Part shown: piece by piece, positions 23,932 to 30,008 of the stretch
How the letters are laid out: the number at the start of each line of letters is the position of its first letter
Numbering within the stretch: the first letter of the stretch is position 1
Source: Escherichia coli
Lineage (GTDB): Bacteria > Pseudomonadota > Gammaproteobacteria > Enterobacterales > Enterobacteriaceae
DNA length: 64,000 bases
Assembly (NCBI RefSeq): GCF_044647545.1
Contig: NZ_CP172818.1
Reading direction: 5' to 3' (one strand)
The notes under the pieces: model-generated
Database searches by the model: none
Told to the model about the DNA's origin: nothing
Seen by the model: the letters and a program-made list of their open reading frames with translations, nothing else
Program-made: the position numbers and the translations under genes

Positions 23932-26592
23932 ATGAGTCAGCGAGGACTGGAAGCACTACTGCGACCAAAATCGATTGCGGTAATTGGCGCATCGATGAAA
24001 CCCAATCGCGCAGGTTACCTGATGATGCGTAACCTGCTGGCGGGAGGCTTTAACGGACCGGTACTCCCGGTGACGCCTGCCTGGAAAGCAGTGTTGGGTG
24101 TGTTGGCCTGGCCGGATATTGCCAGCTTGCCCTTTACACCAGACCTTGCGGTTTTATGTACCAATGCCAGCCGTAATCTTGCTCTTCTGGAAGAGCTCGG
24201 CGAGAAAGGCTGTAAAACCTGCATTATTCTTTCCGCCCCGGTATCGCAACACGAAGATCTCCGCGCCTGCGCCCTGCGCCATAACATGCGCCTGCTTGGA
24301 CCAAACAGTCTGGGTTTACTGGCTCCCTGGCAAGGTCTGAATGCCAGCTTTTCGCCTGTGCCGATTAAACGCGGCAAGCTGGCGTTTATTTCGCAATCGG
24401 CTGCTGTCTCCAACACCATCCTCGACTGGGCGCAACAGCGTGAGATGGGCTTTTCCTACTTTATTGCGCTCGGCGACAGCCTGGATATCGACGTTGATGA
24501 ATTGCTCGACTATCTGGCACGCGACAGTAAAACCAGCGCCATCCTGCTCTATCTCGAACAGTTAAGCGACGCGCGACGCTTTGTTTCGGCGGCCCGTAGT
24601 GCCTCGCGCAATAAACCGATTCTGGTGATTAAAAGCGGACGTAGCCCGGCGGCTCAACGTCTGTTGAACACCACGGCAGGAATGGATCCGGCGTGGGATG
24701 CGGCTATTCAGCGTGCCGGTTTGTTGCGGGTACAGGATACCCACGAACTGTTTTCGGCGGTGGAAACCCTTAGCCATATGCGCCCGCTGCGTGGTGACCG
24801 GTTGATGATTATCAGCAACGGTGCTGCGCCTGCCGCGCTGGCGCTGGATGCCTTATGGTCACGCAATGGCAAGCTGGCAACGCTAAGCGAAGAAACCTGC
24901 CAGAAACTGCGCGATGCACTGCCTGGACATGTGGCAATCTCTAACCCTCTCGATCTGCGCGATGACGCCAGCAGCGAGCATTATGTCAAAACGCTGGACA
25001 TTCTGCTCCACAGCCAGGATTTTGATGCGCTGATGGTTATTCATTCGCCCAGCGCCGCTGCTCCCGCAACAGAAAGCGCGCAAGCATTAATTGAAGCGGT
25101 AAAGCATCATCCCCGCAGCAAGTATGTTTCTCTGCTGACGAACTGGTGTGGCGAGTACTCCTCGCAAGAGGCACGACGATTATTCAGTGAAGCCGGGCTG
25201 CCGACCTATCGCACACCGGAAGGAACCATCACTGCTTTTATGCATATGGTGGAGTACCGGCGTAATCAGAAGCAACTACGCGAAACGCCGGCGTTGCCCA
25301 GCAATCTGACCTCCAATACCGCAGAAGCGCATCTTCTGTTGCAACAGGCGATTGCCGAAGGGGCTACGTCGCTTGATACCCATGAGGTTCAGCCCATCCT
25401 GCAAGCGTATGGCATGAACACGCTCCCCACCTGGATTGCCAACGATAGCACCGAAGCGGTGCATATTGCCGAACAGATTGGTTATCCGGTGGCGCTGAAA
25501 TTGCGTTCGCCGGATATTCCACATAAATCGGAAGTTCAGGGCGTCATGCTCTACCTGCGTACAGCTAATGAAGTCCAGCAAGCGGCAAACGCTATTTTCG
25601 ATCGCGTAAAAATGGCCTGGCCGCAGGCGCGGATCCACGGCCTGTTGGTGCAAAGTATGGCTAACCGTGCTGGCGCTCAGGAGTTGCGGGTTGTGGTTGA
25701 GTACGATCCGGTTTTCGGGCCGTTGATCATGCTGGGCGAAGGCGGTGTGGAGTGGCGTCCTGAAGATCAAGCCGTCGTCGCGTTACCACCGCTGAACATG
25801 AACCTGGCCCGCTATCTGGTTATTCAGGGGATCAAAAGTAAAAAGATTCGTGCGCGCAGTGCGCTACGCCCCTTGGATGTTGCAGGCTTGAGCCAGCTTC
25901 TGGTACAGGTTTCCAACTTGATTGTCGATTGTCCGGAAATTCAACGGCTGGATATTCATCCTTTGCTGGCTTCTGGCAGTGAATTTACCGCGCTGGATGT
26001 CACGCTGGATATCGCGCCGTTTGAAGGCGATAACGAGAGCCGGCTGGCAGTGCGCCCTTATCCGCATCAGCTGGAAGAGTGGGTAGAATTGAAAAACGGT
26101 GAACGCTGCTTGTTCCGCCCGATTTTGCCAGAAGATGAGCCACAACTTCAGCAGTTCATTTCGCGAGTCACCAAAGAAGATCTTTATTACCGCTACTTTA
26201 GCGAGATCAACGAATTTACCCATGAAGATTTAGCCAACATGACGCAGATCGACTACGATCGGGAAATGGCATTTGTAGCGGTACGACGTATTGATCAAAC
26301 GGAAGAGATCCTCGGCGTCACGCGTGCGATCTCCGACCCTGATAACATCGATGCCGAATTTGCCGTGCTGGTTCGCTCGGATCTCAAAGGGTTAGGCTTA
26401 GGTCGACGCTTAATGGAAAAATTGATTACCTATACGCGAGATCACGGACTGCAACGTCTGAATGGTATTACGATGCCAAACAATCGTGGCATGGTGGCGC
26501 TGGCCCGCAAGCTCGGGTTTAACGTTGATATCCAGCTCGAAGAGGGGATCGTTGGGCTTACGCTAAATCTTGCCCAGCGCGAGGAATCATGA
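23932..26592 (+). CDS. patZ: Protein lysine acetyltransferase (acyl-CoA synthetase-like domain plus C-terminal GNAT)
   Basis: Track ORF 886 aa; CoA-binding N-terminal region and GNAT-type C-terminus. Confidence 0.9.
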   Translation: MSQRGLEALLRPKSIAVIGASMKPNRAGYLMMRNLLAGGFNGPVLPVTPAWKAVLGVLAWPDIASLPFTPDLAVLCTNASRNLALLEELGEKGCKTCIILSAPVSQHEDLRACALRHNMRLLGPNSLGLLAPWQGLNASFSPVPIKRGKLAFISQSAAVSNTILDWAQQREMGFSYFIALGDSLDIDVDELLDYLARDSKTSAILLYLEQLSDARRFVSAARSASRNKPILVIKSGRSPAAQRLLNTTAGMDPAWDAAIQRAGLLRVQDTHELFSAVETLSHMRPLRGDRLMIISNGAAPAALALDALWSRNGKLATLSEETCQKLRDALPGHVAISNPLDLRDDASSEHYVKTLDILLHSQDFDALMVIHSPSAAAPATESAQALIEAVKHHPRSKYVSLLTNWCGEYSSQEARRLFSEAGLPTYRTPEGTITAFMHMVEYRRNQKQLRETPALPSNLTSNTAEAHLLLQQAIAEGATSLDTHEVQPILQAYGMNTLPTWIANDSTEAVHIAEQIGYPVALKLRSPDIPHKSEVQGVMLYLRTANEVQQAANAIFDRVKMAWPQARIHGLLVQSMANRAGAQELRVVVEYDPVFGPLIMLGEGGVEWRPEDQAVVALPPLNMNLARYLVIQGIKSKKIRARSALRPLDVAGLSQLLVQVSNLIVDCPEIQRLDIHPLLASGSEFTALDVTLDIAPFEGDNESRLAVRPYPHQLEEWVELKNGERCLFRPILPEDEPQLQQFISRVTKEDLYYRYFSEINEFTHEDLANMTQIDYDREMAFVAVRRIDQTEEILGVTRAISDPDNIDAEFAVLVRSDLKGLGLGRRLMEKLITYTRDHGLQRLNGITMPNNRGMVALARKLGFNVDIQLEEGIVGLTLNLAQREES

Positions 26593-26705
26593 GTAAGGTA
26601 CTGGAAATGTTGACCACTTAATCGGGACTGGTGTTATTATTGCCCGCTTATGTCGTCTGCATTGCACAGAGGACCCTTCAATGAACAGAGAAGAAATGCA
26701 CTGTG

Positions 26706-28061
26706 ATGTTGTCAAAATTTAAGCGTAATAAACATCAACAACACCTTGCCCAACTACCCAAGATTTCTCAATCAGTTGATGATGTCGATTTCTTTTACGC
26801 TCCCGCCGACTTCCGGGAGACGCTGCTGGAAAAAATAGCCAGCGCGAAGCAGCGCATTTGCATTGTCGCCCTGTATCTCGAACAGGATGACGGTGGCAAA
26901 GGCATTCTGAACGCGTTGTATGAGGCTAAAAGGCAGCGTCCGGAACTGGATGTACGGGTGCTGGTCGACTGGCATCGTGCACAACGTGGACGCATTGGCG
27001 CTGCGGCATCTAACACTAACGCTGACTGGTACTGCCGCATGGCGCAGGAAAATCCGGGCGTAGATGTTCCGGTTTATGGCGTTCCAATCAATACCCGTGA
27101 AGCCCTTGGTGTTCTGCACTTTAAAGGCTTTATCATCGACGATAGCGTACTTTATAGCGGTGCCAGCCTGAACGATGTTTACCTGCATCAGCACGATAAA
27201 TATCGCTACGACCGTTATCATCTGATCCGTAACCGTAAGATGTCAGACATTATGTTTGAATGGGTTACACAGAATATTATGAATGGCCGCGGCGTTAATC
27301 GTCTGGATGATGTTAATCGGCCAAAAAGCCCGGAAATCAAGAACGACATTCGCCTGTTCCGCCAGGAGCTGCGTGATGCCGCTTATCATTTCCAGGGCGA
27401 TGCCGACAACGATCAGCTTTCCGTAACGCCGCTAGTGGGGCTGGGGAAATCGAGTCTGTTGAACAAGACCATTTTCCATCTTATGCCTTGTGCCGAGCAG
27501 AAACTAACCATCTGTACGCCATACTTCAACCTGCCAGCAATCCTTGTGCGCAATATTATCCAGTTGCTGCGCGAAGGGAAAAAGGTCGAAATTATTGTTG
27601 GTGATAAAACCGCGAATGACTTCTACATTCCGGAAGATGAACCTTTCAAGATAATTGGCGCATTGCCTTATCTCTATGAGATCAATCTGCGTCGTTTCCT
27701 GAGCCGTTTGCAGTATTACGTCAATACTGACCAGTTAGTGGTTCGGTTATGGAAAGACGACGACAACACCTATCACCTGAAAGGGATGTGGGTTGATGAT
27801 AAGTGGATGCTGGTAACCGGCAATAACCTGAACCCGCGCGCCTGGCGTCTGGATCTGGAAAACGCCATTTTGATCCACGATCCACAACTGGAGCTTGCGC
27901 CGCAGCGAGAGAAAGAACTGGAGCTGATCCGCGAGCATACCACCATCGTTAAGCACTATCGCGATCTGCAAAGTATTGCCGATTATCCGGTGAAGGTTCG
28001 TAAACTCATCCGCCGTTTGCGCCGTATCCGCATCGACCGATTAATTAGCCGCATCCTGTAA
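26706..28061 (+). CDS. pssA: CDP-diacylglycerol--serine O-phosphatidyltransferase
   Basis: Track ORF 26703..28061 (GTG); ATG at 26706 gives 451 aa starting MLSKFKRNKHQQHL. Confidence 0.93.
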   Translation: MLSKFKRNKHQQHLAQLPKISQSVDDVDFFYAPADFRETLLEKIASAKQRICIVALYLEQDDGGKGILNALYEAKRQRPELDVRVLVDWHRAQRGRIGAAASNTNADWYCRMAQENPGVDVPVYGVPINTREALGVLHFKGFIIDDSVLYSGASLNDVYLHQHDKYRYDRYHLIRNRKMSDIMFEWVTQNIMNGRGVNRLDDVNRPKSPEIKNDIRLFRQELRDAAYHFQGDADNDQLSVTPLVGLGKSSLLNKTIFHLMPCAEQKLTICTPYFNLPAILVRNIIQLLREGKKVEIIVGDKTANDFYIPEDEPFKIIGALPYLYEINLRRFLSRLQYYVNTDQLVVRLWKDDDNTYHLKGMWVDDKWMLVTGNNLNPRAWRLDLENAILIHDPQLELAPQREKELELIREHTTIVKHYRDLQSIADYPVKVRKLIRRLRRIRIDRLISRIL

Positions 28062-28430: not shown

Positions 28431-29725
28431 AGACGCATCCCCTTCCCTTTGCGATGTAGCATCAAAGAAACCAGAAACGCCACCACGGCCATCAAGGTCA
28501 CATACCAGAAGAAGGCTGTTTCCATTCCTATTGATTTCAGCGACAACGCTACGTACTCCGCCGAACCACCAAATATAGCATTGGCGACCGCATATGACAG
28601 ACCAACACCTAATGCGCGAACCTGGGCCGGGAACATTTCAGCCTTCAGTATTCCACTGATTGAAGTATAAAAACTCACTATCAGCAGGGCACACATCACC
28701 AGACCAAAAGCGGCATAAGGCGAGGAAACGTTTTGCAATGCTGAGAGAATAGGAACGGTAAAAATGGCTGCCAGCGAACCGAAACATAACATTGAGGTAC
28801 GGCGACCAATCTTATCCGACAGCGCGCCAATGAGTGGTTGAATAAGCATGAATACAAACAATGCGGCAGTCATAATGCCACTCGCCACGTTGGCATGCAT
28901 TCCCGCAGTATTTACCAGATACTTCTGCATATAAGTGGTGAAGGTATAGAAACAAAGGGAGCCCGCAGCGGTAAAACCGAGAACCATGATGAATGCACGG
29001 CGATTGCGCCATAATCCTTTCAGAGATCCAGCTTCTTTTAAAGCGCGCGTTTCTTGTTGTGAAGTTTCATCTAACTGACGACGTAACCACAACGCCACAA
29101 CAGCTAACACAGCTCCTAACGCGAAAGGAATACGCCATCCCCACTCTCTGAGTGCAGCGTCTTCCATGGTGTGTTGTAAAACCACGACAACCAGTAGAGC
29201 TAGCAGTTGCCCGCCGATCAACGTCACATACTGAAATGATGCGTAAAAACCTTTGCGCCCTTCAACGGCAACTTCACTCATATAGGTGGCGCTGGTGCCA
29301 TATTCTCCGCCAACGGATAATCCCTGGAATAAACGAGCAAGAAGCAATAATGCCGGAGCCCAGGTACCGATTGTTTCGTAGCCTGGCAAACAGGCGATAA
29401 CCAGTGAGCCGAAACACATCATACACACCGATAATAGCATCGATTTTTTGCGACCATGTTTATCGGCTATGCGGCCAAATAGCCAACCGCCTATTGGGCG
29501 CATCAGAAATCCCGCAGCAAAAACACCTGCTGTTTGTAGTAGTTGAGTCGTCGTGTTCCCGGAAGGGAAGAAGATGTGGGCAAAGTAGAGTGAACAGAAC
29601 GAGTAGACATAGAAATCGAACCACTCGACCAGATTACCTGAAGAGGCCCCCACAATCGCCCAAATGCGGCGACGAGTATCACTACTTGTCAGTTTGCTGT
29701 CTGCCGTTACAGTACTTTCAGCCAT
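28427..29725 (-). CDS. kgtP: Alpha-ketoglutarate:proton symporter (MFS)
   Basis: Track ORF 432 aa, 12-TM MFS-type sequence. Confidence 0.93.
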
Positions 29726-30008
29726 GCCATTATGTCTCCTGCCGTAATCCGATGCTTTTGTCGGTCGCTGTTGTTTATTTTTTTTGGTAAAAAAATGTTA
29801 TACATTTGTTGCGTATCATTATGCAACCTTAACCATGAATTTAGTTAGCAGGAAAATGGTTATTGAGGAGCTTAAGGATAAATTTCTGGTAAGGAGGACA
29901 CGTATGGAAGTAGGCAAGTTGGGGAAACCGTATCCGTTGCTGAATCTGGCATATGTGGGAGTATAAGACGCGCAGCATCGCATCAGGCATTTTTTTCTGC
30001 ACCAATGC

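What the first reader, a model, noticed from the sequence alone, without database searches (positions are those of the whole stretch)
26668..26722. Short upstream ORF overlapping the pssA start
AGAGGA then ATG 26681 gives a 13-codon ORF (MNREEMHCDVVKI) that overlaps the pssA start codon in another frame. This could mean translational coupling or be a chance ORF.
Basis: seen in the sequence. Interest (0 to 1): 0.2.

Follow-up and report, generated by a model that had tools for sequence, protein, structure and literature searches.

The report
pssL, known leader ORF of pssA
The short ORF is real but already known: it is pssL, an annotated and experimentally confirmed 13-codon leader ORF of the E. 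coli phosphatidylserine synthase gene pssA, and blocking its start lowers pssA reporter expression by about 30%.

Summary
AGAGGA (26668-26673), a 7-nt spacer, ATG 26681 and TAA 26720-22 give MNREEMHCDVVKI, which overlaps the pssA ATG (26706) by 17 nt in another frame. The window is identical to E. coli K-12 MG1655 here, where this ORF is annotated as pssL (b4782). Weaver et al. 2019 predicted it by initiation-site ribosome profiling. They showed that a pssL-lacZ fusion is expressed, and that replacing the pssL start with a stop lowers pssA-lacZ by 30%. PIRT-Seq (2025) scored it as coding independently.

New here:
- **Distribution:** among 81 Enterobacteriaceae leaders, only Escherichia, Salmonella, Citrobacter and one Enterobacter sp. 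have both the SD and the ATG. 26 have the ATG without an SD, and 31 have ATA, TTA or an indel.
- **Conservation:** the surrounding leader and pssA codons 1-30 are the most conserved stretch of the locus.
- **Structure:** the pssL SD is the 3' arm of a conserved 5' stem-loop.
- **Selection:** there is no amino-acid-level selection on the peptide.

pssL therefore looks like a clade-specific, cis-acting add-on inside an older, uncharacterised pssA leader. From sequence alone such ORFs arise by chance in about 3-5% of shuffles. Novelty: already known. Interest: low.

The parts
26681..26722 (+). pssL coding sequence (13 codons plus TAA), MNREEMHCDVVKI*. It is followed by two more in-frame stops (TAA 26726-28 and TAA 26729-31).
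   Evidence: Identical to the annotated pssL b4782 (NC_000913.3 2722702-2722743).
26668..26673 (+). Shine-Dalgarno of pssL (AGAGGA), 7 nt upstream of the ATG.
   Evidence: Duplex with the 16S 3' end is -5.8 kcal/mol. It lies in the 3' arm of the 5' stem-loop, with predicted unpaired probability 0.17.
26706..28061 (+). pssA (phosphatidylserine synthase, 451 aa). Its start is overlapped by pssL over 26706-26722.
   Evidence: It has no canonical SD: the best upstream duplex is -2.7 kcal/mol.
26610..26640 (+). Predicted pssA promoter: -35 TTGACC (26610-15), 19-nt spacer including an extended -10, TGtTATTAT (26632-40). The predicted transcription start is about 26647.
   Evidence: Read from the sequence. 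The conservation pattern T-G-n-T-A-T-n-A-T fits. The motif TGnTATnAT occurs at a fixed distance in 71 of 81 leaders. The consensus scan missed it because of the 19-nt spacer. The transcription start is inferred, not measured here.
26652..26674 (+). 5' stem-loop of the leader: GUCGUCUG (26652-59) pairs with CAGAGGAC (26667-74), with a 7-nt loop and a G·G mismatch at 26655/26671 in E. coli.
   Evidence: -8.5 kcal/mol, z = -1.7. It folds in the same register in Enterobacter (-7.3) and Klebsiella (-6.2). 84% of cells are paired versus 33-54% for slid controls, and C-G changes to U-A at 26654/26672 in 16 sequences.
26684..26696 (+). Purine-rich tract AACAGAGAAGAAA (pssL codons 2-6), invariant through 26693. 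It is the only SD-like sequence upstream of pssA.
   Evidence: Columns covering 26686-26693 are identical in all 60 distinct leader sequences.
26698..26749 (+). Candidate helix that sequesters the pssA start: GCA..GUG.UGUUG (26698-26711) with CAACA.CAC..UGC (26736-26749).
   Evidence: RNAalifold consensus. All 11 pairs are invariant, so there is no covariation for or against it. -9.3 kcal/mol, z = -1.05. pssA AUG unpaired probability is 0.32.
26706..26795 (+). pssA codons 1-30, with suppressed synonymous variation.
   Evidence: Majority-codon fraction is 0.88-0.95 versus 0.65 for the whole gene. The ten best 15-codon windows of 416 all start in codons 1-12. This is the conservation maximum of the 4.3-kb locus.

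Best explanation
The ORF is pssL, a translated 13-codon leader ORF in the 5' UTR of the pssA mRNA of E. coli. It acts in cis. Ribosomes load at its canonical RBS (AGAGGA, 7 nt, AUG), which pssA itself lacks. They translate across the pssA start codon and terminate at UAA, 14 nt past the pssA AUG. In doing so they open the local pairing around the pssA AUG, and some re-initiate at it. This termination-reinitiation adds roughly a third to pssA initiation, and the rest is direct initiation. The peptide itself most likely has no function. Shown: the ORF's identity, its translation, and the 30% reporter effect (literature). Inferred: reinitiation and unfolding as the mechanism. Shown here: pssL is a clade-specific feature (Escherichia, Salmonella, Citrobacter) sitting inside a much more widely conserved pssA leader.
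For: Identity: the window is 100% identical to MG1655 over 26590-26760, and the ORF coincides with the annotated pssL b4782. Translation: initiation-site ribosome profiling plus a pssL-lacZ fusion diminished by a stop at the start-codon position. PIRT-Seq in-frame reporter insertions provide independent support. Coupling: a stop at the pssL start lowers pssA-lacZ by 30%. Anatomy: the pssL SD duplex is -5.8 kcal/mol versus -2.7 for pssA. The overlap is 17 nt and out of frame. The pssA AUG is predicted to be mostly paired (unpaired probability 0.32) in a helix whose 5' arm lies entirely inside pssL. Acting in cis rather than as a peptide: the observed substitutions in pssL-specific codons are all non-synonymous (E5D; M6T/L/S/P), while codons 2-4 are invariant even at third positions. 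Within E. coli the 66-nt stretch is identical in 5417 of 5425 genomes.
Against: The effect is small. It was measured on arabinose-induced fusions that carried only the first codons of pssA, so they possibly lacked the conserved block at codons 10-30. The start-to-stop replacement alters bases 26681 and 26682. These are (nearly) invariant even in species without a pssL start, so the 30% drop may not be due to lost translation. The pssL ATG is missing in 31 of 81 leaders, and the SD is missing in 26 more, although the leader is otherwise nearly invariant. The pssL SD is predicted to be largely base-paired. Neither helix is significantly more stable than shuffles (z = -1.7 and -1.05), and the start-site helix shows no covariation.
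Confidence: 0.7

Rival explanations
1. pssL is translated but functionally incidental. An SD-like 3' arm of a conserved stem-loop and a G at 26683 happen to create an RBS in one clade. The 30% reporter drop reflects damage to the conserved leader sequence, not loss of pssL translation.
For: ATG and SD vary independently on the pssA tree, needing at least 4 and at least 10 changes respectively. 10 of 81 leaders have no ATG-initiated uORF at all. The leader is the conservation maximum of the locus whether or not a pssL start is present. The mutated bases 26681 and 26682 are (nearly) invariant in all species. Such ORFs arise in 3-5% of shuffles.
Against: SD+ATG is fixed across the whole Escherichia-Salmonella-Citrobacter group and in 5417 of 5425 E. 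coli genomes, although the whole leader is equally fixed. The direction of the reporter effect fits coupling.
Confidence: 0.22
2. pssL is a sensory leader peptide. Ribosome stalling on particular codons (for example the rare AGA Arg codon, or Cys/His) would adjust pssA translation in response to a metabolite or to tRNA charging, as in classical attenuators or in mgtL and speFL.
For: Weaver et al. group it with leader peptides. Codons 2-4 (AAC AGA GAA) are invariant.
Against: There is no terminator-like element or alternative-structure signature and no Rfam leader family match. There are no runs of regulatory codons. The invariance extends to species that lack the start codon, so it is not due to decoding.
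Confidence: 0.05
3. PssL is a small protein that acts in trans.
For: It is translated and invariant within E. coli.
Against: It is 13 residues long and hydrophilic. Its last 6 codons are dictated by the pssA N-terminus. Codon 6 varies among M, T, L, S and P. The start is lost in 31 of 81 leaders.
Confidence: 0.03

Closest known systems
pssL (b4782, YP_010051192.1) of E. coli K-12 MG1655
   Same: Identical sequence, position and overlap with pssA. It is the same gene.
   Different: Nothing differs. Most RefSeq E. coli genomes list only pssA under this stretch.
Other 5'-overlapping leader smORFs from the same study (yoaL-yoaE, baxL-baxA, argL-argF, evgL-evgA)
   Same: Each is a short ORF in the 5' UTR that overlaps the downstream start out of frame, and mutating its start changes downstream reporter expression.
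   Different: Losing pssL and yoaL lowers downstream expression (positive coupling), whereas losing baxL and argL raises it. The pssL effect is the mildest at 30%.
Termination-reinitiation coupling of overlapping bacterial genes (for example AUGA or UGAUG junctions; the scanning model of Adhin and van Duin 1990; Huber et al. 2019; both cited from my own knowledge)
   Same: The upstream stop lies close to the downstream start, and the downstream gene has a weak SD of its own.
   Different: The overlap is 17 nt rather than 1 or 4 nt, so the ribosome would have to move 14 nt backwards. Reinitiation has not been demonstrated for pssL-pssA.
Attenuator-type leader peptides (trpL, hisL, mgtL, speFL)
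   Same: A short translated ORF in a leader.
   Different: There is no terminator or anti-terminator, no regulatory codon run and no Rfam match.

Membership tests
pssL (b4782) of E. coli | Same sequence and same position relative to patZ and pssA as the annotated CDS | tested here: met
   100% identity over 171 nt. The annotated CDS at 2722702-2722743 corresponds to window 26681-26722.
pssL (b4782) of E. coli | Translated in vivo | not testable with these tools
   Literature only: profiling plus a lacZ fusion and PIRT-Seq.
Translationally coupled overlapping leader ORF | Own SD and start codon at functional spacing | tested here: met
   AGAGGA, 7 nt, ATG; -5.8 kcal/mol.
Translationally coupled overlapping leader ORF | Stop codon at or beyond the downstream start, in another frame | tested here: met
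   17-nt overlap; the two starts are 25 nt apart.
Translationally coupled overlapping leader ORF | Downstream expression depends on initiation at the upstream ORF | not testable with these tools
   Published 30% decrease. The result is confounded because the mutation also changes invariant leader bases.
Translationally coupled overlapping leader ORF | Arrangement conserved among relatives that keep the downstream gene | tested here: inconclusive
   SD+ATG is present in 24 of 81 leaders (one clade plus one stray), ATG alone in 26, and no ATG in 31.
Attenuator-type leader peptide | Terminator or alternative RNA structures downstream of the peptide; a known leader family | tested here: not met
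   No terminator-like site. No Rfam family above threshold.
Conserved functional small protein | Amino-acid-level purifying selection (synonymous changes outnumber non-synonymous; start codon retained) | tested here: not met
   No synonymous and only non-synonymous changes in the pssL-specific codons. The start is lost in 31 of 81 leaders. There are few substitution events, so statistical power is low.
Known cis-regulatory RNA (Rfam) | Match to a curated covariance model | tested here: not met
   The only hit is mir-6 at 24.7 bits against a gathering score of 58, on the minus strand.

The most novel reading that the evidence does not exclude
The real functional unit may not be pssL. It may be an undescribed, family-wide cis-regulatory leader of pssA spanning about 150 nt (roughly 26647-26795). 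Its parts are a covarying 5' stem-loop, an invariant purine-rich tract, a paired start codon, and 30 codons with suppressed synonymous change. Such an element could set the synthesis of the essential phosphatidylserine synthase through mRNA stability, controlled weak initiation, or binding of a factor. One candidate factor is PssA itself, which is known to bind ribosomes and polyanions. That link is my own speculation from background knowledge. On this reading pssL is a recent de novo uORF, born when two single-base changes (AGAAGA to AGAGGA, and ATA to ATG) coincided in the Escherichia-Salmonella-Citrobacter lineage.
Probability: 0.3. Interest if true: 0.45.

Novelty: already known. Interest (0 to 1): 0.15.

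Why it matters
PssA catalyses the committed step of phosphatidylethanolamine synthesis and is essential, yet little is established about how its level is set. pssL itself is already in the K-12 annotation, so the finding adds nothing new as stated. The comparison made here changes how the published 30% coupling effect should be read. The uORF is clade-specific, its SD doubles as one arm of a conserved stem-loop, and the mutation used to silence it hits invariant leader bases. The comparison also points to a strongly conserved pssA leader that nobody appears to have characterised. That leader may connect to the old pssR1 observation that an anti-SD change in one 16S rRNA gene raises pssA expression.

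Tried and rejected
1. GcvB sRNA pairing to the C/A-rich run at 26728-26759. The R1-seed duplex is -21.6 kcal/mol, ranks 48th of 83 gene starts, and matches the background mean of -22.2. Rejected. An earlier full-length duplexfold was meaningless.
2. Rfam scan of 26300-27100 at E<=10. It returned only a sub-threshold mir-6 hit.
3. The consensus promoter/terminator scan found nothing.
4. Whole-leader folding is not more stable than shuffles (z = -0.58). The individual helices give z = -1.7 and -1.05.
5. Outgroups beyond Enterobacteriaceae could not be obtained. The genome scan kept only the best 80 loci, all at 87% PssA identity or more. The protein search listed only hits at 86% identity or more. 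Two degenerate-codon metagenome scans for the PssA N-terminus returned nothing, and there was no positive control, so those zeros cannot be interpreted. The ancestral state (ATG or ATA) is therefore unresolved. Salmonella was recovered indirectly through its Pat protein.
6. The supplementary oligo tables of Weaver et al. and the paper by Bartoli et al. 2017 (pssR1) are not held. I could not establish the exact fusion boundaries, the mapped transcription start, or the identity of the pssR1 base.
7. Other leader uORFs (ATG 26650; the ATG at -45 in other genera) were considered as conserved alternatives to pssL. None is universal.

Full report
**1. Observation**

- AGAGGA lies at 26668-26673, followed by a 7-nt spacer and ATG at 26681.
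- Thirteen sense codons (MNREEMHCDVVKI) follow, ending in TAA at 26720-22. Two more in-frame TAAs come right after.
- The flanking genes are patZ (23932-26592) and pssA. The pssA ATG is at 26706, 25 nt after the pssL ATG, so the two ORFs are in different frames and overlap by 17 nt.

**2. Identity**

- A 401-nt query around the site matches 5425 of 5426 complete E. coli genomes.
- The window is 100% identical to K-12 MG1655 over 26590-26760.
- In NC_000913.3 this exact ORF is annotated as pssL (b4782, YP_010051192.1, 2722702-2722743), upstream of pssA at 2722727-2724082.

**3. What is published**

Weaver et al. 2019 (bioRxiv 10.1101/511675) predicted pssL from ribosome profiling with Onc112 and retapamulin, which trap initiating ribosomes.
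- They could not epitope-tag it because pssA is essential.
- A chromosomal pssL-lacZ fusion is clearly expressed, and a stop at the start-codon position diminishes it.
- The same mutation lowers a pssA-lacZ fusion by 30%. The authors suggest this reflects loss of translational coupling.

PIRT-Seq (NAR 2025, PMC12350097) independently recovered pssL as coding, using in-frame reporter transposon insertions.

One later paper (mBio 2022, PMC9426594) cites pssL as lying in the 5' UTR of ppsA. That is a gene-name mix-up: the annotation places it upstream of pssA.

**4. Chance**

Sequence alone would not have settled the question.
- 157-233 of 5000 dinucleotide shuffles of the 113-nt upstream region (3-5%) produce an SD+ATG out-of-frame ORF that overlaps the pssA start.
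- 4 of 58 long ATG-ORFs in this window have such an ORF.

**5. Comparative analysis (new here)**

I collected 80 species-level Enterobacteriaceae pssA loci plus Salmonella enterica.

*Distribution of the pssL start and SD:*

| State at the pssL position | Leaders (of 81) | Taxa |
|---|---|---|
| ATG plus GAGG-type SD | 24 | Escherichia, Citrobacter, Salmonella, one Enterobacter sp. |
| ATG without an SD | 26 | Enterobacter, Lelliottia, Leclercia, Silvania and others |
| ATA | 24 | Klebsiella, Raoultella, Kosakonia, Phytobacter, Trabulsiella and others |
| TTA | 5 | Pluralibacter, three unnamed Enterobacteriaceae isolates, one Enterobacter sp. |
| Indel that shifts the frame | 2 | L035 (insertion), L049 (deletion; carries ATA) |

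On a pssA gene tree the ATG state needs at least 4 changes and the SD state at least 10, so the two features vary independently.

*Conservation of the surrounding sequence:*
- 60-nt windows between 26666 and 26795 score 0.94-0.98. Typical coding sequence scores about 0.83, and the pssA-yfiM spacer about 0.65.
- The G of the pssL ATG (26683) and pssL codons 5-6 (26695-97) are among the few variable positions.
- In the pssL-specific codons every observed change is non-synonymous (E5D; M6T/L/S/P). Codons 2-4 never change, even at third positions, and this holds in species without a start codon. The constraint is therefore on the RNA or DNA, not on the peptide.
- pssA codons 1-30 show majority-codon fractions of 0.88-0.95 against 0.65 for the gene. 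This extends well beyond the 6 codons that pssL overlaps.
- Some reduction in synonymous change at gene starts is a known general effect in enterobacteria (Eyre-Walker and Bulmer 1993, from my own knowledge). I had only one comparator start in the same loci, yfiM, and it shows no such conservation.
- Within E. coli the 66-nt pssL stretch is identical in 5417 of 5425 genomes. A comparator of equal length at the patZ 3' end differs from the window in 3022 of 5418.

**6. Anatomy of the leader**

- **Promoter.** The conservation pattern picks out a -35 TTGACC (26610-15) and an extended -10 TGtTATTAT (26632-40). TGnTATnAT is present at a fixed distance in 71 of 81 leaders. This predicts a transcription start near 26647. 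That position is inferred, not measured.
- **5' stem-loop.** It begins five nucleotides downstream of the predicted start, pairing 26652-59 with 26667-74.
  - Its energy is -8.5 kcal/mol in E. coli. It folds in the same register in Enterobacter (-7.3) and Klebsiella (-6.2).
  - 84% of alignment cells are paired, against 33-54% for slid controls. One pair switches from C-G to U-A in 16 sequences. These probably represent few independent events.
  - The pssL SD is the 3' arm of this stem-loop. The GG that makes it an SD costs one base pair, a G·G mismatch.
- **Purine-rich tract.** AACAGAGAAGAAA, invariant through 26693, is the only SD-like sequence upstream of pssA (-2.7 kcal/mol).
- **Start-site helix.** RNAalifold proposes that 26698-26711 pairs with 26736-26749, enclosing the pssA AUG. 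All 11 pairs are invariant, so covariation cannot test it. Its stability is unremarkable (-9.3 kcal/mol, z = -1.05).
- No Rfam family matches this region.

**7. Mechanism**

Best-supported reading (confidence about 0.7, most of it resting on identity and translation):
- pssL acts in cis. Its canonical RBS recruits ribosomes that pssA's own weak site recruits poorly.
- These ribosomes traverse and unfold the pssA start region, then terminate 14 nt past the AUG. A fraction re-initiates there.
- The translation and the 30% effect are shown in the literature. Reinitiation and unfolding are my inference, based on the geometry and on established models of bacterial coupling.

Main rival (about 0.22): pssL translation is incidental.
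- The start-to-stop mutation changes bases 26681 and 26682, which are (nearly) invariant even where there is no start codon.
- The reporters may have lacked the conserved block at codons 10-30.
- 31 of 81 leaders have no pssL ATG, and 10 have no ATG-initiated leader ORF at all.

A sensory leader peptide or a trans-acting peptide is unlikely.

**8. Dead ends**

- GcvB pairing to the C/A-rich run is no better than background.
- No outgroups could be obtained.
- The supplements of Weaver et al. and the paper of Bartoli et al. 2017 are not held.
- From memory, Bartoli et al. reported that pssR1 is a single-base change in the anti-SD of the rrnC 16S rRNA and that it enhances pssA translation. Weaver et al. 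say it increases pssA expression. I could not check which base is changed.

**9. Verdict**

Interest is low. The part worth carrying forward is the unusually conserved pssA leader in which pssL sits, together with the clean natural-allele experiment (G26683A) that would separate pssL translation from the leader sequence.

Noticed in passing
window 26600-26795: The promoter, 5' UTR and first 30 codons of pssA form the most conserved stretch of the 4.3-kb locus across 71-80 Enterobacteriaceae species (60-nt windows score 0.94-0.98, against about 0.83 for coding sequence). Synonymous change is suppressed well beyond the pssL overlap. No known RNA family matches.
   Followed up: partly
window 26652-26674: A conserved 5' stem-loop lies five nucleotides downstream of the predicted transcription start, and its 3' arm is the pssL Shine-Dalgarno. 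One pair covaries between C-G and U-A. In Enterobacter the stem is a perfect 8 bp and there is no SD.
   Followed up: yes
window 26650-26706: A second upstream ORF lies in the third frame: ATG 26650, 18 codons (MSSALHRGPFNEQRRNAL), with TGA 26704-06 overlapping the pssA ATG as UGAUG. The ATG sits about 3 nt from the predicted transcription start, so the ORF is nearly leaderless. It is only 4 codons long in Salmonella and most Citrobacter, and its ATG is absent in Klebsiella and some Kosakonia/Phytobacter.
   Followed up: partly
window 26661-26684; e.g. L059, L072 at -45 relative to pssA: Positions 26682-84 read T-G/A-A in all 80 species, so there is always a stop in the pssA frame. Many Enterobacter, Klebsiella, Raoultella and Trabulsiella have an ATG at -45 that opens a 7-codon ORF ending at this stop. 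Where the pssL ATG is also present, as in several Enterobacter, the stop overlaps it as AUGA.
   Followed up: partly
L035 (E. asburiae) about 1475-1503; L049 about 1477: A 1-nt insertion in L035 turns pssL into an 8-codon ORF that ends TGATG on the pssA start. A 1-nt deletion in L049 puts the ATA codon in frame with pssA.
   Followed up: no
window 26196-26275 (inside patZ, GNAT domain region EINEFTHEDLANMTQIDYDREMAF): This is the second conservation peak of the locus (0.93-0.94). Third-codon-position conservation is 0.83 against a patZ mean of 0.61. It is unexplained and could be an internal promoter or another overlapping signal.
   Followed up: partly
literature: PMC9426594 (mBio 2022): [quoted passage not shown]
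   Followed up: yes
window 29904-29966 (+): Another annotated small-protein gene, yfiS (b4783, 20 codons), lies just upstream of kgtP according to the MG1655 annotation.
   Followed up: no
window minus strand: ATGs at about 29730 (5 nt upstream of the kgtP start at 29725), 41519 and 38971: The crude scan for SD+ATG out-of-frame ORFs overlapping the first ATG of long ORFs flagged three other cases. The long-ORF starts are proxies only, so these may be artefacts.
   Followed up: no
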